From: a virus
Lineage: Duplodnaviria; Caudoviricetes
Virus record (IMG/VR): IMGVR_UViG_3300022841_000019
Span: 1 to 59,588 of that record
Length of the DNA stretch: 59,588 nt
Reading direction: 5' to 3' (one strand)
The position numbers and the translations under genes were made by a program. Under the pieces are notes generated by a model that did not search any database, had not been told where the DNA came from, and worked only from the letters and a program-made list of their open reading frames with translations. This document shows positions 3,860-51,173 of this stretch, piece after piece. Each line of letters starts with the position of its first letter. The first letter of the stretch is position 1.

Positions 3860-6277
3860 ATGATTTACAAAACTGTAAATAGTACATTTCCAAGTCAGGT
3901 AGTACCCGATTCAGAGAAGCAAAGCTACGAATACGGAAGAGCTGTTGGTAATGGTATAGAAAACGAATGGTTCCGCGGTGATCGTGGAGCTGGTTCAGGA
4001 GGAAGGTTTGGTAGCAACTGGCAGAGCTTTCATAGACTAAGGTTATATGCAAGAGGAGAACAATCTGTACAAAAATACAAAGACGAGTTATCTGTTAACG
4101 GGGATTTATCTTACCTTAATTTAGATTGGCAGCCGGTTGCTGTTTTATCTAAGTTCGTAGATATCGTTATTAACGGTATGACTGATAAAGGTTATAAAAT
4201 AAAATCGTTCGCTACAGATCCTTACGCTTTAAAAGCTAGAACTGATTACGCTGCAAATGTGTTAAGAGACATGAACGCTAGAGAGCTTATTGAGGAATTT
4301 AAGCAAACTTTAGGAGTTGATTTATATAGTACAAATGATCCATCCAATTTACCTCAATCAAGAGATGAACTAGATTTATATATACAATTAAATTACAAGC
4401 AAAGCATTGAAATAGCTGAAGAAGAAGTTATTGACAACGTGTTAGAATTTAATAGATACGAAGAGACAAAAAAAAGATTAGCACAAGATTTAACTATATT
4501 GGGTATTGCTTGCGTTAAAACAGGTTTCAATTTATCAGAAGGTGTTACCGTTAGTTATGTGGACCCAGCTAATTTAGTTTACTCTTACACCGAAGACCCT
4601 AATTTTGAAGACATATATTATGTAGGCGAAGTCAAAGGGGTTTCTTTGTCTGAGCTTAAGAAACAGTTTTCTCACTTAACTAATGAAGAGCTAGAGGAAA
4701 TACAAAAATATCCAGGCTCACAGAATAATATTAGACAACAAGGAAATCAAGATGGTAACTATGATACGGTACAGGTTTTATATTTTGAATACAAAACTTA
4801 CACAAATCAAGTATTTAAAATAAAGCAAACAGAATACGGGTTAGAGAAAGCAATAGAAAAGAATGATGGTTTTGATCCACCGGTTAATGATAACTTTAGT
4901 AAAGTTTCTAGATCTATAGAAGTTATTTATAGTGGAGCTAAGATATTAGGCCACGATAAAATGTTAAAGTGGGAGCTGGCTGAAAACATGACTAGACCGT
5001 ATAGTGATCAAACTAAAGTAGAAATGAATTACGCTATATCTGCTCCTAGAATGTATAAAGGCAGAATAGATAGTTTAGTTAGTAAATGTATTGGTTTCGC
5101 TGATATGATTCAAATAACACATCTTAAAATACAACAGGTATTATCTAAAATGGTTCCTGACGGTATATTTATAGACGTAGATGGTTTAGCTGAGGTAGAC
5201 TTAGGTAATGGAACTTCTTACAACCCTCAAGAAGCTTTAAATATGTACTTTCAAACAGGTAGTATAGTTGGTAGATCTTTAACGCAAGATGGTGATCCTA
5301 ACAGAGGTAAAATACCAATCCAAGAGCTACAGTCGTCTTCAGGTATAAATAAAATACAAGCGCTAATACAGACTTATCAATACTATTTACAAATGATAAG
5401 AGATGTCACGGGATTGAACGAAGCTCGAGATGGTAGCATGCCTGCAAAAGATTCTTTAGTTGGTTTACAAAAGCTAGCGGCAGCTAATTCAAACGTAGCT
5501 ACAAAACATATACTACAGTCATTAATGTACGTTACCATTAGAACGTGTGAAAATATAAGTTTAAGGGTTGCTGATATGTTAGATTTCCCTCTAACTAAAA
5601 ACGCGTTAATGAATAGTATCAATGCAGTTAACACTGCTAGTTTAGAAGAAATATCTAAATTAAACATGCACGAGTTTGGTATATTTTTAGAACTAGAACC
5701 AGACGAAGAAGAGAAAGCTCAGTTAGAAAGAAATATTCAAATAGCTTTACAGACTCAGAGTATTGATCTAAGCGACGCTATAGACATCAGAGAAATAAGG
5801 AATTTAAAGTTAGCAAACCAATTTCTAAAACATAGGCAAAAAATAAAGAAAGAAGAAGTTAGAAAAGCTCAACTAGAAAATATTCAAGCTCAAGCTCAAG
5901 CAAACTCAGAGACAGCTGAAAGAGCGGCTCTGGCAGAAGTGCAGAAACAGCAGGCTTTAGCTCAAACAGAATTACAAATAGAGCAAGGAAAGTCTCAGTT
6001 CAGAGTACAGCAGATGCAGCAGGAGGCAGAAATAAAGAAACAATTAATGGCAGAGGAGTTTAATTACAACATGCAATTAGCTCAGATAAGAGCAAATGCT
6101 GAGTATGGAAAAGAAAAAGAAAAAGAAGACCGTAAAGATCAAAGAACAAAAATACAAGCAACTCAACAATCAGAGTTGATCGATCAAAGGAAAAAGGACT
6201 CTGTACCAAAAAACTTTGAATCATCTAGTAATGATGTACTAGGTGGTTTTGGTCTAGGAGGTTTTGAACCTAGATAA
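3860..6277 (+). CDS. portal protein
   Basis: 805 aa directly after TerL, Q/E-rich coiled-coil C-terminus typical of podovirus portals. Confidence 0.8.
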   Translation: MIYKTVNSTFPSQVVPDSEKQSYEYGRAVGNGIENEWFRGDRGAGSGGRFGSNWQSFHRLRLYARGEQSVQKYKDELSVNGDLSYLNLDWQPVAVLSKFVDIVINGMTDKGYKIKSFATDPYALKARTDYAANVLRDMNARELIEEFKQTLGVDLYSTNDPSNLPQSRDELDLYIQLNYKQSIEIAEEEVIDNVLEFNRYEETKKRLAQDLTILGIACVKTGFNLSEGVTVSYVDPANLVYSYTEDPNFEDIYYVGEVKGVSLSELKKQFSHLTNEELEEIQKYPGSQNNIRQQGNQDGNYDTVQVLYFEYKTYTNQVFKIKQTEYGLEKAIEKNDGFDPPVNDNFSKVSRSIEVIYSGAKILGHDKMLKWELAENMTRPYSDQTKVEMNYAISAPRMYKGRIDSLVSKCIGFADMIQITHLKIQQVLSKMVPDGIFIDVDGLAEVDLGNGTSYNPQEALNMYFQTGSIVGRSLTQDGDPNRGKIPIQELQSSSGINKIQALIQTYQYYLQMIRDVTGLNEARDGSMPAKDSLVGLQKLAAANSNVATKHILQSLMYVTIRTCENISLRVADMLDFPLTKNALMNSINAVNTASLEEISKLNMHEFGIFLELEPDEEEKAQLERNIQIALQTQSIDLSDAIDIREIRNLKLANQFLKHRQKIKKEEVRKAQLENIQAQAQANSETAERAALAEVQKQQALAQTELQIEQGKSQFRVQQMQQEAEIKKQLMAEEFNYNMQLAQIRANAEYGKEKEKEDRKDQRTKIQATQQSELIDQRKKDSVPKNFESSSNDVLGGFGLGGFEPR

Positions 6278-19565: not shown

Positions 19566-22500
19566 ATGTTCGAATTTAACGGAAAACAATACTCACTAGA
19601 TCAACTACAAGCTATAGCTAATGAAAAAGGTTATACGTTTGAAGAATTACTTTCAAAAAACCCTACTATAAAAGAAATAAAACAAGAATCACCAGTTGGT
19701 GGTTTTTTTGGTGAAGAAGTAAAGACAAACGCTGTTGTGGGACCGGTTGCAAATGCAACAGCGAAACAAGGAGTAGCAACAGATACGGTTTTAGGTTCGG
19801 GAAACACTTCTTCGGCATTACAAGATTCTGATACTGAACTTAAAAAACCAACTTTAGATCAATTTGAGAAAATGTCTCTTGATCAAAAAAGAAAATTAAA
19901 TTTCAGTGATAGACAAAGATTAACAGCCGAAAGAGATTTAAAAGCTAAAAACAGCAGGCAGTTAGATAAAACCAAAGAAGCTTCAGTAAAAAAAATAAGC
20001 ACTGATCAAGCTTTGTTTAATTTTGAACAAAGAACTGGTCAAAAGGCTAGCTCTATAATGGACTTAACAGATAGCGATTACGGTGCTCCGCCTCAGTTGC
20101 AGAAATTTAAACCAGTAGATAAATTAGAAACATATAAAAGAAATAGAAATAGATTAAACGAGCTTCAACTAGAAAAAGATAAGTTAAGAAAAAAAGCTGA
20201 AGTTACTTCTTACGAGACTATGGATCCAATGGAAAGCGTAAATTACGTTAAGAAAACCATGAAAGATTTTGATGAAACCGTAGCCAACGAGGTAAAAGTA
20301 ATGAATCTTAATCCTGACTTTAAACTAAGAAACGATGCTATTATTCAGTTATCTAGAAACTCAAATAACAATAGAGCGACTGGCGACGTTGCTTCTGACC
20401 TATCTAGTGAGGCTGGTGTTTTGAATTTATTCAAAGGAAAAAGTTACTATAAGAACCTAGAGTCAACAGAGACAATAAAATTAAACGACGAGGTTGAAGA
20501 TGCAGTAATTAATAATTTAGACGAAAGGTCTTTACAGAAACTAGCAGGCGGTTTTTACACTTTACAAGAAAAAGAAAACTTGATTAATAACGTAAAAATA
20601 CCTTTAATTAAAGAAAAAGAAAAAGAGATTTCTACTGCAGTTGAAAAACTAACTATAGAAACTGAGAGTAAAATGTATAATTATTCTAAAGAAATAAATA
20701 ACATAAATGCATTAATAAAAGACGTAGTAAGTGGTAAACAAAAAGACGAGCAGGGTAGGTATATTTTAAACGAAGAAGACTCTAGCGCCTATAATATTTT
20801 AGTTAGTAAATACGAAAACACAAATAGCAAGATAAGGTCCACTGCAGAAAACTATGATTACTTCAAGAAAGACGCTGCTAACAAATTTAATTCATATCAA
20901 GGTGAACTAGGTGTTGACCTAGCTAAGCAGACTATGAATAACAACTTTAAACTAAGTAGCGACGCTGATAGTTTTAGAGAAAAATACGCAGGTGATGGTT
21001 TTTGGAACGCTACGAAAGACATAGTTGGTGGTGATTTAGTACAAGGCTTGTATCAAACTGTTAAAAAAGCAACAGTAGGGTCAGGTTCTTGGGTTTTATC
21101 TAGTTTCGGTGATATGTTTCAAGACCAAGATAATTACTCTAGTTTTGACGCTTTTAGAGACATTGTTGGTAACTGGACAAACAACACTATGGTACCTCAA
21201 TCAACTGATGAAAAATTTAGTATAACAAAAGAAGAAGGTGGTTTTAAAGGTTTTGAAGCCAGAAACTACGCTAAACTAGGTGTTAGTATGGTTCCTTTTA
21301 CTGGTTATCTAATATCTGAAGTTAGAAAAGGTAATTACACTGGTTTAAAAGACGCTTTAGGTAAAACATATATAAATCTAGGAGCTAAAGGAAAAGTGCT
21401 TCCACAGGCTTCACAAAAACTTAAAGATAATATAATAATGGTTGATGCTACTTTCAGGGCCACCATAATAGATAATCAAAAACAAGCAGAACTACTAGGT
21501 TTAAACGGGTTGCAAGCTACGGCTTACGCTACAGCTATATCAAGCACTGAGGCTTTAGTACAAAGTATAATGCCAGATGCTCAATTTCTAAAAGGAGTTG
21601 GAGGTAAAACAATAAAAGAAGCTTTTGCTGGCACGTTAAAAACCGCCGCAAACAAAGAAGGCGTTAAGTCTGCTGTTAAAGAATTTAGTACTGGAATTTT
21701 AAAAGAATACGCGGAAGAAGAGATAACTTTGGGTGCTAACATTCTTACAGACGCTTCTTTTGGTTTAGCACTACCTAAAGCTAGTGAGTTTTTAAATCAA
21801 CAAATAGAATTGACAATGGGTACTTTAATGCTTAGTGGTTCTATGGGTACGGTTGGAGCAAAAAATACGTTTAGTAACCAAAAAAAATTAATATACAATC
21901 AAATATCAGAAAACATAAATGGTCTAGAACTTCACTTGATGACCATGTACAAATACACGAAAGACAGCGAATCTAAAGAAAAGATAAACGACGCTATAGT
22001 GTTTTCTAGAGATATTAAAAAAGCTATAGAATCTTCTCCAGAAAACGTTACATCTGAACAGATAGACTTGTTAGTTGAAAAAAGCAAATTAATACAAGAA
22101 AAAGAAAAAACAGATCCAGCTTTTTATAGCGAAATTGATGAAAAAATAAATAAAATAGATAAAGACATAAAGCAGGGAGGTGTAAAAAGAGATATTTTAT
22201 CTAAAATAGAAAAAGACATTGAAAACGTACAAAAAAATGCCGCTAAAATTGGTGTTAATATAGGTGAAGTTATAGCGCTTGAAGATGATGTTAATGAAAG
22301 CTCTGCTGATAAAATGAAAAAAATACTCTTAGACTCTGGTTTAAGCGAAGAACGATCTGAAGAAAGTAAAGGCAACCTAGGTGTTTTTATTACTAACAAA
22401 GAAGGTAAGGAGATTTTAGTTATAAATAAAACCGTTGCTATAAAAGAAAGCGTTGTTACAACAGGTCAACACGAGTTTTTACATAAATTACTAAGATATA

Positions 22501-25500
22501 ACTTTGCTGAAGATTCTAAGTCTTTAAATGAAGGTGTTGAATTACTTAAAAATGTAATACAATCTTTACCAGAAAGCCAAGGTGTAGAATTTAAAGATAG
22601 ACTATCTTCTTACGAAAAAGACTACGAAGACAAAAAAATAACTAAAGATAATTTTTACGAAGAATATATAACTTTATTTTCAGAAGCTCTATCTCGTGAA
22701 GATGTAAAACCTGATAAATCTACCTACACTAAGATAAAAGATTATTTTAGAAGACAATTTCAAGACGTCGGATTAATTAAAATTAAGTTCAATGAAAGCG
22801 AAAACTCTGTCGTTAATTTCATAGAAGATTATAATAAAGCTTTTCAAAAAGGAAAAATTGGAAAAGAATTTGTTATTAAGAAAAGTGCAAATGTAGATGA
22901 AAAAATAGCAAAACAAACTATATCAGAGAGTAAAAGTATTGCTGATATTGAAACTAAAATAGAGGATCTTACAGATCGATACTACAACGGCGAGATGGAC
23001 GACATCGAGTACGAGCAAGAATTAGGTAACTTAGAATCTAAATTAGAAGCTGCTAAAAGAGCGCCTATTGAAGAGAAAGTTGTTTCTAAGCCAAGTACAT
23101 TAGATAACAAAAACAACACAGAAGAGGTTATTAAAAAAGCCTCTGAAAAAGTATTTAAAGAAACAGAAGTATCAGATAAAAACAAGGACATATCTAAAAA
23201 AAATGAAGATATTTCTAACGAAATACTAGAGTTAAAAGCTAATAGCGTTTCTGACATAAAAGACCCTGAGAAGCGTAAAGCTATAGTCAACAGGCTAGGT
23301 GAAAACAATCTAGGTGCTGTAACTAATCTAGCTAAAAAAGCGGCAGCTGTAGGAAAAGACTTAGCTATAGATAGTGGTCTTAAGGTTGGTTATGATGAAT
23401 TCTTTTCTGGATTCAGTGAAGAGTTATCTGCTCTTATTAACACGTATAAAGTGTTAGTAGACGGTAAGAAAGTTCCTTTCGGTGCTTACATGAAGAAAAA
23501 CTTAAGCTTAAGATACGGGCAAATACTAGACAAAGCCTTAAAAGGTAAAATACAAAACACACAAAGCCTAGACTTAGAGGCTGGATCAGTAGGGTCAACT
23601 AGAGAACTAGCGGATGAAGGATCTAGAGATTTCGACGCCTACACTAGCGCTGAAAGAGGTTTACCAGCTGGTGAACTAATTGACGTAACTACTTTTAATA
23701 ACGTAAAAGACAAGATAGGTACAATAAAAGACATAGTAAAAACAGAGAATATAGACATAGCTAATTTAACTTACAAAAAAGTTGTTGATCAATATGCTGG
23801 ACCAGTTGGAGCAGCTATCTTAGGAGTGTATAGCACTGATCCTAACAACGCTTTTGATGTAGACATGAACAAGAAGTTAGCTGAGAGAATAGATGGCACT
23901 AGAACGCTTAACTACGGTAAAGACACCGGAGGTGAAGCAGAGGTTAGAGCTATGCAAAAACTGTTTTTAAACTATAACGACGCTGTTAAATTCATAAAAA
24001 CTATACCTGAGTTTAATATAGCTCCGTTTGAGACAACAGTGGATAAACAGGGGAAATCTATAGATTTAACTACAGACGCTAAAGGTTACAGTGTAGGGAC
24101 TTCAAGTGTTTTATTGAACCAATTATACGACGTGTACGTTGATCCTAAGTCTAAAAGCAGCGACAAAGACGTTAAAAATAGAGCTATAACTTCTCCATCT
24201 GGTAGAGGTAAAGGTAAAACTTCTCAAGTAGCTAAAGTATATAGATTAAAGGACAAATATAGAGGTAGAGTATCTAAAGAAGCAGTAAAAGAATTACAGA
24301 AAACAATAGGTATTACAGAAGCTGGTGAGGCTTTTATACCAATGAAAGGTGTTAACAGAACTAAATTTGGTACGGCTTTACAGGGTTTAACCAAGATATA
24401 TGCCGCGAACGTAGCTAACACTATAATTAGAAAAGATATTGTAGAAAAAGGTATCACATCTGATAAAAAACCTACAGAAAAAGTATTAGCTGATATTGGC
24501 GGGGGTAAATCCAGGGTAATGTTTAGCAAGAACGCTAAAAAGTCCTACGAAACTAGCTTAGCTAAGAATAGACCCTCAATGAAAGACGCTGCTGGACAAG
24601 TAGATAAACTGTTTTTATGGGTGGATAATTTAAACGTACCTAAAAATAAAAAAAGTAAATTTGAAAAGCTAGCTTTTTACTATATGAACAATGGTTTTGT
24701 AATACTTCCAGAAGATGGCTACAAAGTGATACAAGCTGAAAGAATATCTTCTATAAAGAAAATAGACCCATATAGCTATAAAAACCCTAACGAAATACTA
24801 GAACAGTTCTCAGGTGAGATTAAGCCAATGAAAATTAACCCTGATGAAGTAAATTCATTTAGCAATAAAAAAGTATTAGAAAATGGTTTAGTTGTTTACG
24901 ATGTTAAGGACGACAAGCAAGGTCAGCTTGATGTTAGAGCTGCTGTAGATAGTACTTGGGGTGTAAAGTCTAACCCTTGGTGCTTAATAGCTAGAACTAT
25001 AAAAAGTAAAGACAGTTTAAACCAAAAGATTCTTGATTTATGGGGAGAACAAGGTGTTGGTTGGTATGATTTTGAAGATTTTAGTTCTATTAAAGAAGCT
25101 CGTAAAGCTGCTAGTAAATACGAAAAAAGTGGTGAGTACGAAAAAATAACAGTAACTTCTGAGGTAGAGTACGACGAGTCCAGTAAGCAGTTTATTTCTT
25201 TAGATTCTTTGAATAAAGAAAAAGCTAAACTAAAAGAACTAGGATTCATGTTTAAGCCAGTTGTAGAACTACCAGGACTTCAAACAAAGCTTGGTAAAGT
25301 TTACATACTAACTTATTACAAGGAGGAAAGCGGAACTGTTGTAATGCGAAGAGATTTCAACAAAAGTAAAAAACACCCTATTAAAAATGTTTTCTTTAAA
25401 GAGAAAGAGACTGAAGCTAAATCTATTTTAAGTAATCTAAATGAATTAGATAATTCATTTAGATTGTTTGAAAGTTATAACTCTGATGGTAATGGCTATA

Positions 25501-28500
25501 AAATAGCTTTTACACCAAACAATAAGCTAGTATCTCTTAGAGACGGAAACGATAAGTTTTGGTGGGACCGTATGGATGCCGCGTTCAAAAACACAGATGA
25601 GTTAATTGAAGCTAACTATACAGATAAAAAAGGTGATATAAAATTCAGCAAGAATCTTGAAGTTAGGTTTTCTAAAGCGTTTGACAAGTCAGATGTGAAA
25701 ATTCTTACTAATACAGTAAATAACCAACTACTAAGTGATGAAACCAAAGAAGCATTATCTAGTGTCATCGAAGAAGGAAATAGCAATATAATAGATGTTT
25801 TAAAAGCAATAGATCAAATAGCTAAAGTAGAGATTACAGAAAAAGACCGTAGAGAATTTCAAGCAGAAAGTGTAAACAACCTAGTGTCTTCTTATAGACC
25901 TAGTGATCAATCTATAATACTAAAAGCGTTTAGTAATTATAGAGATACATATATTAAAGAGTATGAGCGGTTTGGACTTAGTGTAGTTTATTCAGACTTG
26001 AAATCTAATTTAAGTAAAACAAATAGCAGTGACGAAAATAGAGCGGAATTAATAAAAGAATTTCTATACTTTGCTTCTAGATCAGCTAAGTCAAGTAAGT
26101 TAGAGAAAGTTCCTAGTAATTATGATTTCTTTAATAAGTATATAAAACCTATAAAAATAGCTGTAGATTTAGGTTTTAAAGTAAAAAGAGAAGATGGTAA
26201 GTCATTTATTTACTATAAAGACGAATTGCTAAGAGGCATGTTGGATATTACTAACGAGATTAAAAAAACTGGTTTCACTCCAGCTACTGTTATTGAAATT
26301 GAGGCTCAAGCAGCGGCATCTGTTAATTACATTATTAAAGCTATATCAGACCAAAATGGTGATATTAATAAAATAAAATCAGTTATAGCTTTTCTTTCTT
26401 TAGATCAAAGAGGTCCAATACGTAAGCTTTCTAAACCTGGAGCGCAAATGCAAGGCGTAAAACCTAAAGACATGTATTTAGAACACGCTACAACAGTTCT
26501 AAAGATTAAAAAACAACTACTAGAGTTTGGCGAAAAAGGCAATGAAGCTTCTTTGAGAAGTTATTTGAAAGGAGTTTATGTTAACCTTATATCTAAAGAA
26601 CTAAACAGCGTTCTCTCTAAGAGTAATCTACAAGAGGCAGATGCTTCAAGATACTCTAACACAGAAGCTCAGTCGATAATTAGCAAAGCTATTAAAGAAA
26701 ATAAAATACTTCAAATAGCTCCTGTCAACACGGGTTTAGGAAAATATAACGAAGAAGTTAATAGCGACGCGCGATTCAGTAAAAACTTAAGTAGAGAATT
26801 TAACAAGATAATAGAAAATAAAACCGGCATACTAGCTACGGAGACAATATCTGAAGTAAAAGCTAAAATGATAGCAGATAGCCAACGTCGTTTCAATATA
26901 TTTATACCACCATCGGCTGAAGATTTTGTTGGGCTATTGTACTACACACTAGGTAAAGGTAAAATTGGTGATCAGCAGATGCAGTTTTACAAAAGAACAT
27001 TACTAGACCCATATGCTAGAGCGAATCAAGCCATATCAAGAGATAGGAATGCCTTTGGTAGAAGATTTAAAGAGATAAAAAAAGAATTCAAAGTTACACC
27101 GAAAGACCTTAAAGAAAAAACTCCAGATGGACTATTTACTAGAGAGCAAGCTGCTCGTGTTTGGATATGGAATAGCATAGGGATAGAAGCTCCAGGTTTA
27201 AGTAAAACAGATATTAGTGAATTGGTTAAATACGTCGATGCTGACGCAAATTTATCTGAATTCGCTGCTCAAGTAATGAGGTTGAACCCAGGTAAAAAAT
27301 ATCTTTCACCTAGTGACACGTGGATAACAGGTAACATAACAACTGATCTACTAGAGGTGTTAAACACAACTAGAAGAAAAATGCATTTAGAGCAATGGCA
27401 AAAAAACGTTGATGCTATTTTCTCAGTAGAAAACCTAAACAAGTTAGAAGCTTCTTATGGGACACAGTACCGTAAAGCAATGGAAAACACGTTAAGGAGA
27501 ATGAAAACCGGTAAGAACAGAGATTACGGTACCGATACTCTAACAGGTAGAGTTACAGACTGGGTAAATGGCTCTGTTGGCGCTATAATGTTCTTAAATA
27601 CTAGATCAGCAGTTTTACAAACAATATCTGCTATAAACTTTATAAACTTTACAGATAATAACGTTTTAGCCGCTGGTAAAGCTCTAGCTAATCAAAAGCA
27701 GTACTGGAGTGATTTTTCAACTCTTTTTAAATCTGAATACTTGATTGACAGGAGAGATGGTTTGAAAGTAAATGTAAACGAAGCTGATATAGCGGATATA
27801 GCTAAAGAAAAAGGCGCTAGAGGAGCTTTAAACTATTTGTTAAAACTAGGCTTTACGCCAACGCAGGTAGCTGATAGCTTTGCTATTGCATCAGGTGGTT
27901 CTACTTTCTATAGAAACAGAATTAATTCTTTAATTAAAAAAGGAATGGATCCATTAGCAGCAGAAAAACTAGCTATGAGGGATTTTATAGAGACAGCTGA
28001 AGAATCTCAACAATCTAGTAGACCAGATAAAATAAGTCAACAACAAGCAGGTCCTTTAGGGCGTATTATACTAGCTTTTGCTAACACACCAGCCCAGTAT
28101 GCTAGACTTATTAAAAAAGCCGCTAGCGATCTTAAAAACGGCAGAGGAGACGCTAAGTCTAACATATCTAAGATACTTTACTATGGGGTTGTTCAAAATA
28201 TTATATTTACAACGCTGCAACAGGCTGTTTTTGCTATGACATTTGGAGACGAAGAAGAGGAAGACAAGAAAACAGTGGATGTAGTTAATAGTATGATAGA
28301 CGGTATAGCTAGAGGTACGGGTATCGGTGGAGCTATATTTTCAGTTGTTAAAAACACAGCTTTAAAGCTATATAGAGACAGTGAAAAGAAAAACCCTAAA
28401 TATGAAGATGGTTTTTTAGAGTTATTAAAGATAGCACCTCCAATATCTTCTAAGATTCAAAAGTTTAGAGCAGCTGGTAGAACAATGTCTTGGGAGATGG

Positions 28501-28772
28501 ATGAAATTAAAGAACAAGGAGTTAGCTTATCTAGCCCAGCTGTTAAAGCAGGTGGTAAAGTTGTATCTGCTGCTTTTAATTTTCCATCAGATAGAATTAT
28601 ACAAAAAGTAGAAAACCTAGTTGACGCATCTAATAGCGAGATAGAGACGTATAAGAGATTAGCTTTAATAGGTGGTTGGTCAGCTTGGGAATTAGATATA
28701 AAAAAAGAAGAGGAAAAAAAGAAGAAAAAAACAAAAAATAACTTAAACTTAAAAACTAAGATAGAAAGATAG
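19566..28772 (+). CDS. giant (3068 aa) multidomain ejected/polyvalent virion protein with zincin and sigma-region-2-like domains
   Basis: HEFLH at aa 969-973 with downstream EE; ENNLGAVTNLAKK...VPFGAY at aa ~1246-1308; four xFSK linkers; no DxDxD RNA polymerase motif seen. Confidence 0.7.
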   Translation: MFEFNGKQYSLDQLQAIANEKGYTFEELLSKNPTIKEIKQESPVGGFFGEEVKTNAVVGPVANATAKQGVATDTVLGSGNTSSALQDSDTELKKPTLDQFEKMSLDQKRKLNFSDRQRLTAERDLKAKNSRQLDKTKEASVKKISTDQALFNFEQRTGQKASSIMDLTDSDYGAPPQLQKFKPVDKLETYKRNRNRLNELQLEKDKLRKKAEVTSYETMDPMESVNYVKKTMKDFDETVANEVKVMNLNPDFKLRNDAIIQLSRNSNNNRATGDVASDLSSEAGVLNLFKGKSYYKNLESTETIKLNDEVEDAVINNLDERSLQKLAGGFYTLQEKENLINNVKIPLIKEKEKEISTAVEKLTIETESKMYNYSKEINNINALIKDVVSGKQKDEQGRYILNEEDSSAYNILVSKYENTNSKIRSTAENYDYFKKDAANKFNSYQGELGVDLAKQTMNNNFKLSSDADSFREKYAGDGFWNATKDIVGGDLVQGLYQTVKKATVGSGSWVLSSFGDMFQDQDNYSSFDAFRDIVGNWTNNTMVPQSTDEKFSITKEEGGFKGFEARNYAKLGVSMVPFTGYLISEVRKGNYTGLKDALGKTYINLGAKGKVLPQASQKLKDNIIMVDATFRATIIDNQKQAELLGLNGLQATAYATAISSTEALVQSIMPDAQFLKGVGGKTIKEAFAGTLKTAANKEGVKSAVKEFSTGILKEYAEEEITLGANILTDASFGLALPKASEFLNQQIELTMGTLMLSGSMGTVGAKNTFSNQKKLIYNQISENINGLELHLMTMYKYTKDSESKEKINDAIVFSRDIKKAIESSPENVTSEQIDLLVEKSKLIQEKEKTDPAFYSEIDEKINKIDKDIKQGGVKRDILSKIEKDIENVQKNAAKIGVNIGEVIALEDDVNESSADKMKKILLDSGLSEERSEESKGNLGVFITNKEGKEILVINKTVAIKESVVTTGQHEFLHKLLRYNFAEDSKSLNEGVELLKNVIQSLPESQGVEFKDRLSSYEKDYEDKKITKDNFYEEYITLFSEALSREDVKPDKSTYTKIKDYFRRQFQDVGLIKIKFNESENSVVNFIEDYNKAFQKGKIGKEFVIKKSANVDEKIAKQTISESKSIADIETKIEDLTDRYYNGEMDDIEYEQELGNLESKLEAAKRAPIEEKVVSKPSTLDNKNNTEEVIKKASEKVFKETEVSDKNKDISKKNEDISNEILELKANSVSDIKDPEKRKAIVNRLGENNLGAVTNLAKKAAAVGKDLAIDSGLKVGYDEFFSGFSEELSALINTYKVLVDGKKVPFGAYMKKNLSLRYGQILDKALKGKIQNTQSLDLEAGSVGSTRELADEGSRDFDAYTSAERGLPAGELIDVTTFNNVKDKIGTIKDIVKTENIDIANLTYKKVVDQYAGPVGAAILGVYSTDPNNAFDVDMNKKLAERIDGTRTLNYGKDTGGEAEVRAMQKLFLNYNDAVKFIKTIPEFNIAPFETTVDKQGKSIDLTTDAKGYSVGTSSVLLNQLYDVYVDPKSKSSDKDVKNRAITSPSGRGKGKTSQVAKVYRLKDKYRGRVSKEAVKELQKTIGITEAGEAFIPMKGVNRTKFGTALQGLTKIYAANVANTIIRKDIVEKGITSDKKPTEKVLADIGGGKSRVMFSKNAKKSYETSLAKNRPSMKDAAGQVDKLFLWVDNLNVPKNKKSKFEKLAFYYMNNGFVILPEDGYKVIQAERISSIKKIDPYSYKNPNEILEQFSGEIKPMKINPDEVNSFSNKKVLENGLVVYDVKDDKQGQLDVRAAVDSTWGVKSNPWCLIARTIKSKDSLNQKILDLWGEQGVGWYDFEDFSSIKEARKAASKYEKSGEYEKITVTSEVEYDESSKQFISLDSLNKEKAKLKELGFMFKPVVELPGLQTKLGKVYILTYYKEESGTVVMRRDFNKSKKHPIKNVFFKEKETEAKSILSNLNELDNSFRLFESYNSDGNGYKIAFTPNNKLVSLRDGNDKFWWDRMDAAFKNTDELIEANYTDKKGDIKFSKNLEVRFSKAFDKSDVKILTNTVNNQLLSDETKEALSSVIEEGNSNIIDVLKAIDQIAKVEITEKDRREFQAESVNNLVSSYRPSDQSIILKAFSNYRDTYIKEYERFGLSVVYSDLKSNLSKTNSSDENRAELIKEFLYFASRSAKSSKLEKVPSNYDFFNKYIKPIKIAVDLGFKVKREDGKSFIYYKDELLRGMLDITNEIKKTGFTPATVIEIEAQAAASVNYIIKAISDQNGDINKIKSVIAFLSLDQRGPIRKLSKPGAQMQGVKPKDMYLEHATTVLKIKKQLLEFGEKGNEASLRSYLKGVYVNLISKELNSVLSKSNLQEADASRYSNTEAQSIISKAIKENKILQIAPVNTGLGKYNEEVNSDARFSKNLSREFNKIIENKTGILATETISEVKAKMIADSQRRFNIFIPPSAEDFVGLLYYTLGKGKIGDQQMQFYKRTLLDPYARANQAISRDRNAFGRRFKEIKKEFKVTPKDLKEKTPDGLFTREQAARVWIWNSIGIEAPGLSKTDISELVKYVDADANLSEFAAQVMRLNPGKKYLSPSDTWITGNITTDLLEVLNTTRRKMHLEQWQKNVDAIFSVENLNKLEASYGTQYRKAMENTLRRMKTGKNRDYGTDTLTGRVTDWVNGSVGAIMFLNTRSAVLQTISAINFINFTDNNVLAAGKALANQKQYWSDFSTLFKSEYLIDRRDGLKVNVNEADIADIAKEKGARGALNYLLKLGFTPTQVADSFAIASGGSTFYRNRINSLIKKGMDPLAAEKLAMRDFIETAEESQQSSRPDKISQQQAGPLGRIILAFANTPAQYARLIKKAASDLKNGRGDAKSNISKILYYGVVQNIIFTTLQQAVFAMTFGDEEEEDKKTVDVVNSMIDGIARGTGIGGAIFSVVKNTALKLYRDSEKKNPKYEDGFLELLKIAPPISSKIQKFRAAGRTMSWEMDEIKEQGVSLSSPAVKAGGKVVSAAFNFPSDRIIQKVENLVDASNSEIETYKRLALIGGWSAWELDIKKEEEKKKKKTKNNLNLKTKIER

Positions 28773-37792: not shown

Positions 37793-37835
37793 AATTTTAC
37801 TGTTTTAATTGATTAATTTAATTTAATTTTAATAA

Positions 37836-37865
37836 TATTATCTTTAGTTGATCGTATTTTATTTG
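37836..37865 (-). promoter_or_regulatory. phage early-type promoter P1
   Basis: CAAA-N5-TACG-N10-GATAATA upstream of ssb. Confidence 0.75.
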
Positions 37866-39188: not shown

Positions 39189-39965
39189 TTACAGATAATC
39201 AATCACTTGCGAGTGATCTACGTTATCTATTAATCTTTGTATTGCTTGTCTTTTTAGTTCTGATACGCGAACGTAAGAACTTACTCCTTCAATGTTTAAA
39301 GCATCGGCTATATGTTTGGCTGATTTTTTATCACAGTCTAAACCATAAGACAATCTTAGAACTTCATATTCGTTACCTACTAAATGTTTTTTCATTAAAC
39401 TCTTTAGATAAGAATTTAATAACTCCATATTATACGGCTCTGATTCATCTCTTATAGATTCAGCCCAAGAACTATGGTCTTCGTTAGATTTTTCACCAGC
39501 ATTGAAAGACGTATCTATACTTGTAAATATAGAGTTAAAAAACAACGCAACCATTTTTTCATCTTTAGGGTTACTACGTATTTCATTTAACTTATGCTCT
39601 GGTATTCTCATATCTCCTCTAACCATATCTATCCTGCGTCTTATAAGACCTTTGATGCGTTTGCTAAAGAAAGATTTAAGCGTACGTTCTACATCTAAGG
39701 AGTTTTCTAAAACTTTCCAGTCTAACTTATCCACAGCCCGTATTAGTCCCTCAGAACCAATCTGTATTATGTCGTTGATACTTAATACACCGGAAGCTTG
39801 CTGTGTTGTAGAGAATTTACGGCTTAAGTTTTCTACTAAAGGTAAAAACTTTATAATCAGTTCGTCTCTAGTATACTCATTCCATTTTGATTGTTTTATA
39901 TTAGATATAGATTTTTTTAAATCTTCTTTATACCTGATATAATTCTGTACATTATAGTTTTTCAT
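39189..39965 (-). CDS. sigma-70 family RNA polymerase sigma factor (probably late)
   Basis: Region 2 ELI..FLPLV..LSRKF...DIIQIG.EGLIRAVDK, RIP; region 4 VLRLSYGL...IA..L...RVSEL...AI.RL. Confidence 0.85.
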   Translation of the reverse strand: MKNYNVQNYIRYKEDLKKSISNIKQSKWNEYTRDELIIKFLPLVENLSRKFSTTQQASGVLSINDIIQIGSEGLIRAVDKLDWKVLENSLDVERTLKSFFSKRIKGLIRRRIDMVRGDMRIPEHKLNEIRSNPKDEKMVALFFNSIFTSIDTSFNAGEKSNEDHSSWAESIRDESEPYNMELLNSYLKSLMKKHLVGNEYEVLRLSYGLDCDKKSAKHIADALNIEGVSSYVRVSELKRQAIQRLIDNVDHSQVIDYL

Positions 39966-40045: not shown

Positions 40046-40309
40046 TTAAACTTGTCCGCCATATAGTTTATCTATTTTATCTTCCACTCTTTTGATCTCT
40101 ACCAGTACATCTATTAACAACTCATTGTGTTTAAGTGACTTGTTTAGATATCCTTTTAAAGCATATTTTAGGTTGTGGTAATAATAGTTATTTGTGAACT
40201 CATAAGTCTCCTTAGAACCGTCTAGTTTTGTCTTAATTCGGTCCTCGTGATACTGCAGCACTACGTTGTTATCATCACTTAGTATTCTATAGTTGTCGTC
40301 GATCTTCAT
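40046..40309 (-). CDS. hypothetical protein
   Basis: 87 aa, directly behind promoter P2. Confidence 0.6.
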   Translation of the reverse strand: MKIDDNYRILSDDNNVVLQYHEDRIKTKLDGSKETYEFTNNYYYHNLKYALKGYLNKSLKHNELLIDVLVEIKRVEDKIDKLYGGQV

Positions 40310-40326
40310 ATTTGTTTCATTTAATA

Positions 40327-40356
40327 TATTATCAATTAGCGTTCGTATTTTATTTG
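40327..40356 (-). promoter_or_regulatory. phage early-type promoter P2
   Basis: Consensus match, exact spacing. Confidence 0.75.
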
Positions 40357-42373: not shown

Positions 42374-42990
42374 AATTGTTGGTTTAATAGTTCTTTCTCT
42401 TTTTTTAATTCATTACTCATGTTTCTATGTATTGTCCTTGTTGAACATTCTAAAGATTTAGCTAATCCGCTAATAGTTATCTTAGATCCTAAGTCGTGAG
42501 TATCAAGCATGCATTGATAAATATCATCTTCATGTATCTTTTTACCACGACCTATAATTTGACCTACTATTTTTAATTTCTCTTCAGTGGTTAAACCGGT
42601 GAACTCATTGAAAATGATTTTTCTTAGCTTGTTTTTAGGTGGCTTTTCTAAGTCACACATGCTAACCTCATATATTATGTTGTTAAGTAGTTGCTCTGGT
42701 ATTTCAAAAGTTACAAAACCATTTGTTTTCTCAGCTATATGAGCTACTACTTGCTTAAACTGATCTTGATCAAGGCTTGGGTTTAAATACCATAATACTA
42801 ACATGTGCCATTTTAAAGACTTATATGTAGTAATCTTAGCTCTTGATCTAAACAATTCATAACATTCATTAGTTCCTTCTTCGTAATAATTACCCCATTC
42901 AAAAGTGCTGGTTGGTTTATCACTAATAGGACCTCTACGGTATATAATTCTTCGTCTATTCAATATTTCTAGATTTCTAATGTGTGACAT
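42370..42990 (-). CDS. DNA-binding protein with C-terminal HTH (candidate initiator/regulator)
   Basis: ITISGLAKSLECSTRTIHRNM HTH; start codon lies inside TGTGACA element copy 1. Confidence 0.65.
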   Translation of the reverse strand: MSHIRNLEILNRRRIIYRRGPISDKPTSTFEWGNYYEEGTNECYELFRSRAKITTYKSLKWHMLVLWYLNPSLDQDQFKQVVAHIAEKTNGFVTFEIPEQLLNNIIYEVSMCDLEKPPKNKLRKIIFNEFTGLTTEEKLKIVGQIIGRGKKIHEDDIYQCMLDTHDLGSKITISGLAKSLECSTRTIHRNMSNELKKEKELLNQQL

Positions 42991-43033
42991 AAGCCCCTTA
43001 CTAATTAGTCTAATACCCTAATGTCACAGTTTT
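42981..43033 (-). repeat. TGTGACA-N32-TGTCACA element, copy 1 (inverted relative to copies 2 and 3)
   Basis: Reverse complement: AAAACTGTGACATTAGGGTATTAGACTAATTAGTAAGGGGCTTATGTCACACA. Confidence 0.85.
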
Positions 43034-45047: not shown

Positions 45048-45085
45048 CTTGTTTATGTTTTATAATTTTATTGTTTTAACTCTAG

Positions 45086-47237: not shown

Positions 47238-47248
47238 TATTTATATTT

Positions 47249-47350: not shown

Positions 47351-47464
47351 TCGGTTTTCGAGTTAAAGAGCCATCTACCGTAAAACTCTTGATTATATTA
47401 AAGGATCTTCGTCAGCTTAACAATTTAAAATACCATTCCCGTACTGAGCCTTTCACCGTAATCT

Positions 47465-47671: not shown

Positions 47672-47695
47672 AATGTTAATTTTAATATTCATATA

Positions 47696-47725
47696 TATTA
47701 TCGATCAGTGATCGTGTTTCGTTTG
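47696..47725 (-). promoter_or_regulatory. phage early-type promoter P5
   Basis: CAAA-N5-CACG-N10-GATAATA; near-identical to P6. Confidence 0.75.
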
Positions 47726-48350: not shown

Positions 48351-48376
48351 GGTATATTTATTTATCGTTACATATA

Positions 48377-48406
48377 TATTATCGATCAGTGATCGTATTT
48401 CGTTTG
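48377..48406 (-). promoter_or_regulatory. phage early-type promoter P6
   Basis: Consensus match, exact spacing. Confidence 0.8.
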
Positions 48407-49263: not shown

Positions 49264-49292
49264 CTTTTGTTTTATTGTATTAAATTCAGTTA

Positions 49293-49322
49293 TATTATCT
49301 ATTAGTGATCGTATTTTTATTG
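49293..49322 (-). promoter_or_regulatory. phage early-type promoter P7
   Basis: CAAT-N5-TACG-N10-GATAATA. Confidence 0.75.
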
Positions 49323-49838: not shown

Positions 49839-49875
49839 TTTTTCTTGTTGTTTTTATATGTATTATTTACATCGA

Positions 49876-49905
49876 TATTATCGATTACTTTACGTATTTC
49901 TACTG
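49876..49905 (-). promoter_or_regulatory. phage early-type promoter P8
   Basis: CAGT-N5-TACG-N10-GATAATA. Confidence 0.7.
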
Positions 49906-50328: not shown

Positions 50329-50370
50329 AATTTATTTATTTTAAGGTTTATATTTATTTATTTACAACTA

Positions 50371-50400
50371 TATTATCTGTTAGTGGTCGTATTTAATTTG
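50371..50400 (-). promoter_or_regulatory. phage early-type promoter P9
   Basis: Consensus match, exact spacing. Confidence 0.8.
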
Positions 50401-50458
50401 TAACTTCTTATAATTCTCATAAACTCTTTGTTTTTGTTATTAGTTTTTGTTACATATA

Positions 50459-50488
50459 TATTATCTGACGATGTTCGTATAATTTTTG
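50459..50488 (-). promoter_or_regulatory. phage early-type promoter P10
   Basis: Consensus match, exact spacing. Confidence 0.75.
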
Positions 50489-51031: not shown

Positions 51032-51074
51032 TTGACTTGATTTTATTATTATTATTATTATTTATATTCAACTA

Positions 51075-51104
51075 TATTATCTGATAGATGTTGTAGATTA
51101 TTTG
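51075..51104 (-). promoter_or_regulatory. phage early-type promoter P11
   Basis: CAAA-N5-TACA-N10-GATAATA. Confidence 0.65.
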
Positions 51105-51143
51105 AGGTTAAAATTTTGATTATTATTATTTTAATTACATAGA

Positions 51144-51173
51144 TATTATCTGAGACCAGCAGTAGAAAGCTTG
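51144..51173 (-). promoter_or_regulatory. phage early-type promoter P12
   Basis: CAAG-N5-TACT-N10-GATAATA. Confidence 0.6.

What the first reader, a model, noticed from the sequence alone, without database searches (positions are those of the whole stretch)
23270..23580. Sigma-factor region-2-like domain inside the giant virion protein: candidate injected sigma factor
Seen: KRKAIVNRLGENNLGAVTNLAKK...YDEFFSGFSEELSALINTYK...GKKVPFGAYMKKNL...ILD aligns by eye with sigma70 region 2 (ARxxLxExNLxLVxxIAKKY...DLIQEGxxGLxxAVxxFD...GxxFxTYAxxxI), followed by an SLD motif. The giant protein has no DxDxD polymerase motif, yet the early arm uses a promoter unlike the Bacteroidota TAnnTTTG consensus, and the free sigma gene itself lies downstream of such a promoter (P2). 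Inference: the virion delivers a sigma-like factor that redirects host RNA polymerase at entry, an alternative to the virion RNAP strategy of N4 and crAss-like phages.
Basis: partly seen in the sequence, partly recalled or inferred. Interest (0 to 1): 0.85.

Follow-up and report, generated by a model that had tools for sequence, protein, structure and literature searches.

The report
Sigma-factor domain inside giant phage protein
A 3068-residue, probably injected, protein of an uncultured phage of marine Flavobacteriia contains a real sigma-factor domain, so the phage may carry its own transcription-starting factor into the cell.

Summary
Four kinds of evidence agree.

- Fold: an AlphaFold2 model (pLDDT 79) has sigma factors in all 21 top rows of a search of 48,161 PDB chains (Z 9.0-6.7).
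- Direct profile link: the family profile finds a small bona fide sigma (hhalign 96.4%).
- Link through a sister type: the sister form of the module in related giants matches PDB sigma factors by sequence (21 of 27 hits, best E 0.0011) and matches the window's type (hhalign 97.6%).
- Language model: protein-language-model neighbours are Sigma70_r2 clusters.

Pfam itself fails on the window's sequence. The module is detectable in at least 58 of 81 related giant proteins.

The interpretation as an injected sigma that redirects host RNA polymerase is plausible but unproven.

- For it: no phage polymerase was found, and there are 10 phage-specific early promoters (AAATACGA-N9-GATAATAT).
- Against it: no sigma4 is nearby, and a free full-length sigma (39189-39965, -) is found in 14 of 14 near-complete relatives.
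- Open: virion delivery rests on synteny and domain content alone.

I put sigma2 homology at about 0.9 and the injected-sigma mechanism at about 0.35-0.4.

The parts
19566..28772 (+). Giant ORF, 3068 aa (P0001). It is modular ('polyvalent'-like) and is the last large gene of the structural arm.
   Evidence: 63 homologues of 1901-4020 aa. At least 561 related IMG/VR stretches.
22470..22484 (+). HEFLH (aa 969-973). This HExxH motif is conserved in the family and is a candidate zincin-type peptidase site.
   Evidence: E970 and H973 are nearly invariant in A1. The peptidase fold was not tested.
23133..23600 (+). Sigma2-like module, aa 1190-1345 (regions 1.2 to 2.4). The finding's 23270-23580 lies inside it.
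23175..23231 (+). Helix aa 1204-1222, equivalent to sigma region 1.2 (invariant N1213).
   Evidence: Model helix 15-33. It aligns with the RpoS 'partial region 1.2 and region 2' fragment 5h6x_B over model 15-135. Invariant columns.
23265..23357 (+). Helix aa 1234-1264, equivalent to region 2.1 (L..NNLGAV..LAKKAA; N1247 invariant). It is followed by an 11-residue insertion (aa 1265-1275) that canonical sigmas lack.
   Evidence: The variant modules lack the insertion.
23391..23444 (+). Helix aa 1276-1293, equivalent to region 2.2, the core-binding helix in sigma factors.
23478..23585 (+). Helix aa 1305-1340, equivalent to regions 2.3/2.4 (PFGAYM..NL.LRY..IL; F1305 invariant, Y1308 at least 90%). 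Its first half is among the best-conserved stretches between module types.
23733..24560 (+). Module B, aa 1390-1665. It is confidently folded but has no known fold. It is not a sigma3 or sigma4 domain and ends in ...VMFSK.
   Evidence: A3. AF2 pLDDT 81.8, pTM 0.82. Best VIA Z 2.5, and no Foldseek hit at E<=0.001 (best E 0.56). hhalign against P0148 gives 0.2%.
26748..28769 (+). C-terminal domain, aa 2395-3068. It is the most conserved part of the family (49-59% identity to relatives).
   Evidence: A1 and A5. No Pfam or PDB sequence relative. Atlas leads to LPD38/LPD39 only.
39189..39965 (-). Free full-length phage sigma factor, 258 aa.
   Evidence: Sigma70_r2 at 17.4-18.3 bits, below the cut-off of 24. 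phmmer to sigma28/FliA 1rp3_A gives E 1.4e-5 over residues 22-245. Present in 14 of 14 relatives that are at least 90% complete.
37835..37859 (-). Early-type promoter motif AAATACGA-N9-GATAATAT.
40326..40350 (-). Early-type promoter motif. It lies upstream of ORF 40046-40309 and of the free sigma gene.
47695..47719 (-). Early-type promoter motif (AAACACGA box).
48376..48400 (-). Early-type promoter motif.
49292..49316 (-). Early-type promoter motif.
49875..49899 (-). Early-type promoter motif (ACGT box).
50370..50394 (-). Early-type promoter motif.
50458..50482 (-). Early-type promoter motif (TTATACGA box).
51074..51081 (-). CAGATAATATAGTTG element without the canonical upstream box.
51143..51150 (-). 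CAGATAATATCTATG element without the upstream box.

Best explanation
SHOWN: aa 1190-1345 of the giant protein are a diverged but genuine sigma-70-family sigma2 domain (regions 1.2-2.4). It has an 11-residue insertion between 2.1 and 2.2. It sits at a fixed central position, after an HExxH motif, in a family of 2000-4000-aa modular proteins encoded at the end of the structural operon of podovirus-like phages related to Flavobacterium, Cellulophaga and Maribacter phages. INFERRED (most likely mechanism, about 0.35-0.4): the giant protein is an internal-virion or ejection protein, the positional analogue of T7 gp16 and N4 gp50. After ejection, and possibly after processing, its sigma2 domain docks on the beta-prime clamp helices of host core RNA polymerase. 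It then acts as a sigma2-only initiation factor or tether, in the manner of T4 gp55. This would load host polymerase on the incoming DNA at the phage-specific early promoters (AAATACGA-N9-GATAATAT-N3-TG), before the phage's own free sigma (39189-39965) is made. The free sigma would then serve the later promoters. In this reading the phage follows the N4 logic (a virion factor, then an expressed factor) but borrows the host's catalytic core instead of packaging a polymerase.
For: Domain identity. The AF2 model has sigma factors in its top 21 of 48,161 PDB chains. The Foldseek top hit is the SigE N-terminal domain, prob 0.89 but E 0.64. In BFVD, five of the top six hits are phage sigma factors, E 0.075-0.25. 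The A2 profile finds P0148, a Pfam-valid sigma. A4 matches A2 at 97.6%. A4 against PDB gives 21 sigma factors among 27 hits. The Atlas gives 26 of 30 Sigma70_r2 neighbours. As a negative control from the same protein, module B is folded with higher confidence and finds nothing (best Z 2.5).

Constraint. The module is detectable in at least 58 of 81 related giants, always at a central position, while flanking modules differ. The 2.2-2.3 junction and the first half of the 2.3/2.4 helix are the best conserved between types: 27.5% and 25.3%, against 7-16.5% elsewhere. F1305 is invariant and Y1308 at least 90% conserved in the F-x-x-Y signature.

Context. The gene follows terminase, portal and five ORFs that hit PHROGs annotated 'virion structural protein'. 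Homologues carry an N-terminal glucosaminidase (P0058, E 4e-10) and Zeta-toxin/AAA_33 domains, as in injected polyvalent proteins (PMC5512222, abstract and passages). No D.D.D motif was found in the giant protein and no PF00940 match in the window.

Promoters. GATAATAT occurs 18 times against 5.06 expected, and 0 of 100 shuffles reach 18. Eleven copies are on the minus strand between 37.8 and 51.2 kb. Ten of them lie upstream of ORFs, and eight of these carry the box exactly 9 nt upstream. They crowd upstream of the free sigma gene, so something present at entry must read them. TAnnTTTG is not enriched (81 against 89.3; full pattern 7 against 4.28).
Against: Pfam Sigma70_r2 is not met by the window's sequence. 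Only 1 of 23 A2 members (E 0.011) and 2 of 16 A4 members (E 0.0052) touch it. No Foldseek E<=0.001. The Z values (9.0 and below) are in the range that helical bundles can reach by common arrangement, so only the exclusivity of sigma hits gives them weight. No sigma3/sigma4 or other known DNA-binding fold lies downstream. Packaging and ejection are not shown. PHROGs gives no hit, no cultured phage in INPHARED has a homologue, and the syntenic Elemovirus 'structural protein' shares no detectable sequence. The free sigma is full length and is present in 14 of 14 near-complete relatives at 58-72% identity. It or the host holoenzyme could read the motif, which partly resembles TAnnnnTG. GATAATAT clusters recur in relatives whose giants carry very different module types, or none detected (G012, G022). 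In the window's clade the two positions that I align by eye, from the, 71 and 73 alignments, with the Gln-Glu pair of the sigma70 core-binding helix (residue role recalled, not tested) are Ser-Gly. 23 of 81 giants remain without a detectable module, and 3 of those are truncated ORFs.
Confidence: 0.38

Rival explanations
1. RNA-polymerase-binding decoy or inhibitor. The ejected sigma2 domain binds the host beta-prime clamp helices only to displace or block the host sigma (host shut-off, or freeing core for the phage's free sigma). It does not read promoters. The early GATAATAT promoters are read by the host holoenzyme or another factor.
For: It is a sigma2-only domain with no sigma4 or DNA-binding partner nearby. 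It diverges quickly between phage lineages, 7-27% identity, while the free sigma stays at 58-72% and the C-terminal domain at 49-59%, as expected for a host-interaction surface. Polyvalent injected proteins are described as carrying host-modifying effectors, including ones that act on RNA polymerase (PMC5512222 and PMC7824862, passages). A full free sigma exists that would benefit from freed core.
Against: The stretch equivalent to the DNA-melting region 2.3 is better conserved between types than the 2.2 helix equivalent to the core-binding surface (25-27% against 16.5%). The canonical host promoter element is not enriched anywhere in the phage, so host-holoenzyme reading of early genes has no obvious target.
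Confidence: 0.2
2. Exapted sigma2 fold with no RNA polymerase role. The domain is a descendant of a sigma, but it now binds single-stranded or melted DNA at the genome end (piloting or protecting the entering DNA), or it is simply a structural spacer of the giant internal protein.
For: Only sigma2 is kept. The window's clade carries a large insertion and the sequence is very diverged, so Pfam fails. The residues aligned by eye with the core-binding Gln-Glu pair are not kept in the window's clade (roles recalled). In known sigmas, sigma2 is a single-stranded-DNA-binding module (3ugo title).
Against: The module persists at the same place in at least 58 of 81 giants despite extreme divergence, and the F-x-x-aromatic signature is retained. 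This argues for a specific, selected function. No independent evidence for DNA-end binding exists.
Confidence: 0.2
3. The giant protein is not delivered at all. It is made late and acts inside the infected cell, for example as an assembly factor or a late regulator that holds RNA polymerase, so the sigma2 domain works late and not at entry.
For: Virion location is inferred only from gene order and domain content. There is no PHROG, no proteomic record and no cultured homologue.
Against: The position after the tail genes, the size, the HExxH motif and homologues with an N-terminal peptidoglycan hydrolase all match known ejection or internal-virion proteins (PMC5512222 passages).
Confidence: 0.1
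4. Chance resemblance: an unrelated helical bundle that merely looks like sigma2.
For: All Z values are at most 9.0 and Foldseek E-values are above 0.05. Pfam fails.
Against: Independent methods converge: structure, profile-sequence, profile-profile and the language model. The register is the same in all, and a control domain from the same protein finds nothing.
Confidence: 0.05

Closest known systems
Sigma-70 family sigma2 domain (regions 1.2-2.4) of group 3/4 sigmas (SigB, SigE, sigma-K, sigma32, RpoS)
   Same: The same helical fold and order of helices. Sequence-profile similarity through the variant modules and P0148. The conserved asparagine of the 2.1 helix and the F-x-x-Y/W signature of 2.3.
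   Different: It is embedded in the middle of a 3068-aa protein. The window's clade has an 11-residue insertion between 2.1 and 2.2. No sigma3/sigma4 was found. It is below Pfam's threshold.
T4 gp55-type late sigma (a sigma2-only initiation factor; function recalled)
   Same: It is a sigma2-only protein that directs host core to a long -10-like element with no -35 recognition. A chain of the T4 gp45-dependent activation complex (7d7d_F) is among the structural hits, Z 7.4. A Campylobacter phage 'sigma factor for late transcription' is the top BFVD hit.
   Different: gp55 is a free, newly made 185-aa protein acting late with gp33 and gp45. Here the domain is part of a giant, putatively pre-made virion protein.
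Coliphage N4 gp50 virion RNA polymerase and its ejectosome (PMC4496689 and PMC13434306, abstracts in search listings; PMC5512222, passages)
   Same: It is a giant protein of about 3000-3500 aa in a podovirus. It has an HExxH peptidase-like motif N-terminal to a transcription module, and a proposed role in starting early transcription at entry.
   Different: N4 carries a complete T7-like polymerase. Here there is no polymerase (no PF00940 match; no D.D.D), only a sigma2 domain that would need host core. No sequence similarity was detected.
Polyvalent proteins of phages and conjugative elements (Iyer et al. 2017, PMC5512222)
   Same: It is a very large, modular protein with an HExxH motif. Homologues swap in a peptidoglycan hydrolase and Zeta-toxin/AAA_33 domains, and it is encoded with the virion genes. 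The Atlas points to LPD38/LPD39 clusters for the C-terminal domain (a lead only).
   Different: No LPD Pfam family reaches threshold here. The word 'sigma' does not occur in the main text of that paper (0 occurrences), so a sigma domain is not among the modules described there.
Free phage sigma factors such as phiEco32 gp36 / phage 7-11 (PMC8948821, abstract in a search listing)
   Same: A phage-encoded sigma redirects host core to phage promoters. The window has such a gene too (39189-39965).
   Different: Those are small, expressed proteins used for middle or late genes, and none is reported as part of a virion protein.

Membership tests
Sigma-70 family, sigma2 domain (Pfam PF04542 Sigma70_r2) | Sigma2 fold: region 1.2 helix plus the 2.1, 2.2 and 2.3/2.4 helices in order | tested here: met
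   AF2 model pLDDT 79. The top 21 of 48,161 PDB chains are sigma factors: Z 9.0-6.7, rmsd 2.4-4.9 A in 20 of the 21 rows (7.8 A for 9fo6_F), 80-120 aligned residues.
Sigma-70 family, sigma2 domain (Pfam PF04542 Sigma70_r2) | Score above Pfam's gathering threshold (24 bits) | tested here: not met
   No hit for the window's sequence at E<=10. 1 of 23 A2 members at E 0.011 and 2 of 16 A4 members at E 0.0052, all below the cut-off.
Sigma-70 family, sigma2 domain (Pfam PF04542 Sigma70_r2) | Statistically supported profile similarity to accepted members | tested here: met
   A2 against P0148, which passes Pfam r2 and r4: hmmsearch E 1.5e-4 over 1.84e9 proteins and hhalign 96.4%. A4 against A2: 97.6%. 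A4 against PDB: SigB E 0.0011, SigE 0.0036, sigma-K 0.0059.
Sigma-70 family, sigma2 domain (Pfam PF04542 Sigma70_r2) | Conserved region 2.3 aromatic signature (F-x-x-Y/W) | tested here: met
   F1305 is invariant and Y1308 at least 90% conserved in 46 giants. A related pattern is found in 30 of 39 HMM-positive giants and in 2 of 42 others.
Complete sigma factor (promoter-specificity subunit) | Sigma4 (or another -35 / flap-binding domain) | tested here: inconclusive
   The adjacent 276 aa fold confidently but match no known fold, and hhalign to the sigma4 part of P0148 gives 0.2%. Pfam finds no r4 in the whole protein. The rest of the protein was not folded.
Complete sigma factor (promoter-specificity subunit) | Binding to core RNA polymerase (beta-prime clamp helices) and promoter-specific initiation | not testable with these tools
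   This needs pull-down or in-vitro transcription with host core.
N4-like / T7-like virion RNA polymerase | Single-subunit polymerase domain (PF00940) | tested here: not met
   No match in the window at E<=1. The tool's control genomes also gave nothing, so the test is weak. Pfam on the whole protein gives none.
crAss-like virion RNA polymerase | DxDxD catalytic motif in a double-psi beta-barrel | tested here: not met
   No D.D.D string in the 3068 aa. The fold was not examined.
Polyvalent (injected multidomain) proteins, Iyer et al. 2017 | Very large multidomain protein with a zincin-like HExxH and swappable effector domains, encoded with virion genes | tested here: met
   HEFLH at aa 969-973, conserved. 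Homologues carry Glucosaminidase, Zeta_toxin/AAA_33 and DUF5763. The gene follows the structural genes. The peptidase fold itself was not tested.
Polyvalent (injected multidomain) proteins, Iyer et al. 2017 | Presence in the virion and delivery into the host | not testable with these tools
   Only synteny with the Elemovirus 'structural protein', which has no sequence similarity.

The most novel reading that the evidence does not exclude
A widespread group of uncultured marine Flavobacteriia podoviruses packages a sigma-factor domain in its giant ejection protein. This would be a third strategy for early phage transcription, beside 'use the host holoenzyme' and 'inject a whole RNA polymerase'. 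The virion delivers only the specificity/melting subunit. That subunit captures host core at the cell entry site, starts transcription at GATAATAT-type early promoters (perhaps also pulling the genome in), and is later succeeded by the phage's free sigma.
Probability: 0.3. Interest if true: 0.9.

Novelty: new variant of a known kind. Interest (0 to 1): 0.72.

Why it matters
Phages without a virion polymerase are assumed to depend on the host holoenzyme for their first transcripts. A pre-made sigma domain delivered with the DNA would break that rule. It would explain how phages of Bacteroidota, whose housekeeping sigma reads an unusual promoter, can use promoters of their own from the first minute. 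It would also add a new class of module, a transcription initiation factor, to the repertoire of injected polyvalent proteins.

The module is common. There are 99 clusters at 50% identity for the window's type alone. It is present in at least 58 of 81 related viral contigs, drawn from at least 561 related stretches in IMG/VR. It has escaped annotation because Pfam does not see it.

It is directly testable with a 156-residue fragment and host core polymerase.

Tried and rejected
- **Complex prediction.** I ran the module (A2) with residues 200-350 of Flavobacterium johnsoniae beta-prime (Swiss-Prot RPOC_FLAJ1). The score was 0.28, under the mark of 0.32, and the controls were not run. This gives no verdict and I draw nothing from it.
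- **Pfam and PHROGs** on the whole protein and on three fragments found nothing relevant.
- **A2 profile against PDB sequences** gave 3 hits at E<=10, none a sigma.
- **BLAST against INPHARED phages** found no match for the whole gene (DNA), aa 1000-2000 or the C-terminal domain.
- **Is the module a copy of the phage's own sigma?** It does not look so: hhalign gives 0.4% for A2 and 1.0% for A4, although the register is right.
- **Does the downstream module B supply sigma3/sigma4?** No support.
- **Co-occurrence test.** I first found the A2-type module in only 7 of 81 loci and 10 of 25 records, and read it as a rare cassette. Weak hits at the same profile positions then led to the variant type A4, and the count rose to 39, then 41, then 58 of 81. 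The 'cassette' reading is rejected. Because the module, the free sigma and GATAATAT clusters are all widespread, co-occurrence cannot tell which factor reads the promoters. The closest A2-type relatives (G001, G003-G005) are 54-87% complete and mostly lack the early arm.
- **C-terminal domain.** The profile has no PDB sequence relative.
- **Cluster look-up.** It gave no names for P0148, P0001 or P0003.
- **Literature.** Five full-text searches and a term search inside PMC5512222 found no report of a sigma domain in a virion or polyvalent protein. Supplementary files could not be seen, and the domain tables of Iyer et al. 2017 may bear on this.
Full report
**What the window is.** The window is a whole IMG/VR virus record of 59,588 bp, estimated 93% complete. 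Genes on the plus strand from about 0.8 to 29.2 kb are structural:
- terminase, 1631-3859;
- portal, 3860-6277;
- five ORFs that hit PHROGs annotated 'virion structural protein', up to 16813.

The portal's relatives are podovirus-type phages of Flavobacterium (68 records), Cellulophaga (15), Tenacibaculum (2) and Maribacter (1), at 41-51% identity. The minus-strand arm 51.4 -> 29.3 kb holds small early-type ORFs, then a sigma gene, ERF, a PD-(D/E)XK protein, primase-helicase, MazG and ribonucleotide reductase. The last large gene of the structural arm is ORF 19566-28772, 3068 aa.

**Checking the observation.** Pfam and PHROGs see nothing there, even at E<=10. The stretch is nevertheless the conserved core of a family:
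- 63 giant proteins share aa 1180-1480, and the most distant ones share only aa ~1192-1370;
- an exhaustive profile search found 99 clusters at E<=0.001, 70 at E<=1e-10 and 34 at E<=1e-30, mostly proteins of 2000-3700 aa.

**Fold.** I aligned 23 members (A2). AlphaFold2 gave a four-helix model: pLDDT 79, pTM 0.68, helices 15-33, 45-75, 87-104 and 116-151.
- A Foldseek-independent comparison with 48,161 PDB chains put sigma factors in all 21 top rows: sigma32 Z 9.0 (rmsd 3.2 A, 99 residues), SigB 8.9, RpoS region 1.2-2 fragment 8.5, SigE N-terminal domain 8.3, SigA domain 2 8.3, pro-sigma-K 8.3, and on to SigK 6.7.
- One of these rows, 3les, is a scaffold whose chain the PDB names 'RNA polymerase sigma factor'. 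Three rows are chain F of holoenzyme entries, which I take to be the sigma.
- The first unrelated protein is at rank 22.
- Foldseek agrees in rank but not in statistics. Against PDB the top hit is the SigE N-terminal domain (E 0.64, prob 0.89). Against BFVD, five of the top six hits are phage sigma factors (E 0.075-0.25).
- Z values of this size can arise between helical bundles, so the fold result alone would not be enough.

**Sequence.** Three results link the module to sigma factors by sequence.
1. Among the 99 profile hits, I scanned the 10 short ones that might be free-standing proteins. One of the 10, P0148 (196 aa; profile E 1.5e-4), is a real sigma: Sigma70_r2 31.6 bits (cut-off 24) and Sigma70_r4 24.3 bits (cut-off 24.1). 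The other nine carry no sigma family. hhalign of A2 against P0148 gives 96.4%, E 1.3e-9 over 53 columns that span regions 2.2-2.3.
2. Weak hits of the A2 profile at the same profile positions in many 'negative' giants revealed a sister form of the module without the insertion (consensus ...EQFKPI..KIVE.R..APGFDRQLLTDEIETG.RGI.DLI.EY.PES.VPLAAYINKFLPARAIEAS.R). I aligned it as A4, 16 sequences. A4 matches A2 at 97.6%, E 4e-12, and P0148 at 86.4%. As a plain HMM it hits PDB sigma factors: 27 sequences at E<=10, of which 21 are sigma factors, and the eight best are all sigma (SigB 0.0011, SigE 0.0036, sigma-K 0.0059).
3. Protein-language-model neighbours of the window's 156 residues are Sigma70_r2 clusters in 26 of 30 hits. 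The top score is 0.95, but the number of shared features is low (119-138 of 256).

I conclude that aa 1190-1345 is a true, very diverged sigma2 domain (regions 1.2 to 2.4), with probability about 0.9. The window's clade has an 11-residue insertion between 2.1 and 2.2. P0148 has this insertion too, and A4 lacks it.

**How general it is.** My first count, 7 of 81 related loci with the A2-type profile, suggested a rare cassette. That was wrong.
- With a combined, iterated profile the count is 39 of 81.
- A simple signature adds 2 more. It is found in 30 of 39 positives and 2 of 42 negatives.
- Iteration seeded from A4 with filters off brings it to 58 of 81. Of the 23 that remain negative, 3 are truncated ORFs.
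- The new hits lie at the same central position and show the same pattern.

Iterated profiles can drift, so 58 is my best estimate and not a hard number. Between the two main types, identity is 7-16.5% in most segments. It is 27.5% in the 2.2-2.3 loop and 25.3% in the first half of the 2.3/2.4 helix. For comparison, the C-terminal domain of the same proteins is 49-59% identical to the window's.

**What surrounds the module in the protein.**
- Upstream there is a conserved HEFLH at aa 969-973.
- Downstream, aa 1390-1665 (A3) folds with higher confidence (pLDDT 81.8, pTM 0.82) but matches no known fold. The best Z is 2.5, Foldseek has no hit at E<=0.001 (best E 0.56), and it shows no similarity to the sigma4 part of P0148. 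This result serves as a negative control for the fold search. It also means that no sigma4 lies next door.
- The C-terminal 670 aa are the best-conserved part and have no Pfam or PDB relative. The Atlas gives only leads, to 'large polyvalent protein' domains LPD38/LPD39.
- Homologues carry an N-terminal glucosaminidase (P0058, E 4e-10), Zeta-toxin/AAA_33 domains (P0057, P0063) or DUF5763 (P0062).
- The protein has no D.D.D motif, and the window has no T7-like polymerase match (this is a weak test, because the tool's controls were silent too).

This architecture matches the 'polyvalent proteins' of Iyer et al. 2017 (PMC5512222; I read the abstract and passages). Those authors also note that N4-like virion polymerases are always fused to HExxH peptidase domains. 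The word 'sigma' does not occur in the main text of that paper.

**Is it a virion protein?** This is inferred, not shown.
- The gene sits where podoviruses keep their internal or ejection proteins, after the tail genes and behind three ORFs of 158, 247 and 489 aa.
- In Flavobacterium phage elemoA the same position holds a 3694-aa 'structural protein'. It shares no detectable sequence with this one.
- No cultured phage in INPHARED has a homologue.

**Promoters.**
- GATAATAT occurs 18 times against 5.06 expected, and 0 of 100 shuffles reach 18.
- Fifteen copies are on the minus strand. Eleven of these lie between 37.8 and 51.2 kb, and ten of those lie upstream of ORFs with common flanks.
- Eight have the full form AAATACGA-N9-GATAATAT. 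Eight of the ten also have TG three bases after the element.
- Nine of the ten lie upstream of the free sigma gene, the nearest at 40326-40350. Only one (37835-37859) lies beyond it.
- The canonical Bacteroidota elements are not enriched: TAnnTTTG 81 against 89.3 expected, and TTTG-N17-23-TAnnTTTG 7 against 4.28.
- The motif's tail, TA-N4-TG, does overlap the host consensus in form, so reading by the host sigma cannot be excluded.

**The free sigma.** It is a complete sigma. phmmer to sigma28/FliA gives E 1.4e-5 over residues 22-245, and Pfam r2 gives 17-18 bits, below the cut-off. It is a core gene, present in 17 of 25 related records and in 14 of 14 that are at least 90% complete, at 58-72% identity. 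It is not detectably close to the giant's module.

**Can comparison tell who reads the promoters?** No. One-strand GATAATAT clusters recur next to the sigma gene in relatives, for example:

| Record | Copies | Control count |
|---|---|---|
| G008 | 16 | <=2 |
| G017 | 14 | <=4 |
| G021 | 13 | <=4 |
| G014 | 10 | <=2 |

. Their giants carry various module types, and two records with milder enrichment (G012, G022) have no detectable module. The closest A2-type relatives are incomplete and lack most of the early arm. So the module, the free sigma and the motif are all broadly shared.

**Mechanism.** I commit to the following reading, at about 0.35-0.4.
- The giant protein is an ejected internal protein.
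- Its sigma2 domain engages host core polymerase and works as a sigma2-only initiation factor or tether, as T4 gp55 does for late genes. It acts at the early promoters of the entering DNA.
- The free sigma takes over later.

What is shown is the domain identity, its conservation, the absence of a polymerase, and the promoter class and its placement. What is inferred is packaging, core binding and promoter reading. The main rivals are:
- a polymerase-binding decoy that only displaces the host sigma (0.2);
- an exapted fold with a DNA-end or structural role (0.2);
- a protein that is not delivered at all (0.1);
- chance resemblance (0.05).

**Novelty.** Five full-text searches found no description of a sigma domain in a virion, ejection or polyvalent protein. 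Supplementary tables could not be read. The domain family is known, but the context is new, so I rate this a new variant of a known kind. If the mechanism holds, it would be a new early-transcription strategy.

Noticed in passing
window 23733-24560 (aa 1390-1665 of the giant protein): This module is conserved in at least 15 related loci. It folds confidently (pLDDT 81.8, pTM 0.82) but matches no solved structure (best Z 2.5 of 48,161 chains, and no Foldseek hit at E<=0.001, best E 0.56). It may be a new fold of unknown function right after the sigma2 domain.
   Followed up: partly
window 24522-24530, 25644-25652, 25668-25676, 26775-26783 (aa 1653, 2027, 2035, 2404): A short motif, hydrophobic-x-F-S-K followed by a small or polar residue, recurs at module borders of the giant protein. 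There are 4 FSK against 1.15 in shuffles (p about 0.03). It also recurs in homologues, often just before or after the sigma2 module, and as K-E-S-R-S-E in the variant type. It could be a linker or a processing site for the HExxH domain or a prohead protease.
   Followed up: partly
window 42983-43028, ~50580-50628, 51423-51469: There is a roughly 46-bp palindromic element, TGTGACA-TTAGCCCCTTACTA...TAGTGTCACA, at three sites. One lies in the divergent region between the two arms. Five half-sites match against 0.04 expected. It looks like an operator for a phage regulator.
   Followed up: partly
window ~273, ~8955, ~9869, ~15355 (+ strand intergenic): Seen by eye only: a second motif, (A/G)GTG(T)GATA(A/G)TTA(T/C), lies in front of structural genes. 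It shares the GATAAT core with the early motif and may be the late promoter class, possibly read by the free sigma.
   Followed up: no
window 26748-28769: The C-terminal 670 aa of the giant protein are extremely conserved (mean column identity 61% over 23 phages, about 130 invariant columns). They have no Pfam or PDB relative. The Atlas neighbours hint at LPD38/LPD39.
   Followed up: partly
protein P0148 (196 aa, from a 1371-bp contig): This small free-standing sigma (Pfam r2 + r4) shares the unusual insertion between regions 2.1 and 2.2 with the giant's module. It may be close to the ancestor of the module. Its genomic context is unknown.
   Followed up: partly
window 45085-45157 (-) and 47238-47464: ARAGORN calls a tRNA-Gln(ttg). 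A second intergenic stretch contains a T-arm-like GGTTCGATTCC but is not called as a tRNA.
   Followed up: no
window 53368-54909 (+): The phage encodes a GroEL-type chaperonin (Cpn60_TCP1, E 4e-59). Elemovirus, which has GroEL and GroES, does too.
   Followed up: no
window 54865-54872 (-): A full GATAATATAGTTG element lies antisense inside the chaperonin gene. It may be an antisense promoter or chance.
   Followed up: no
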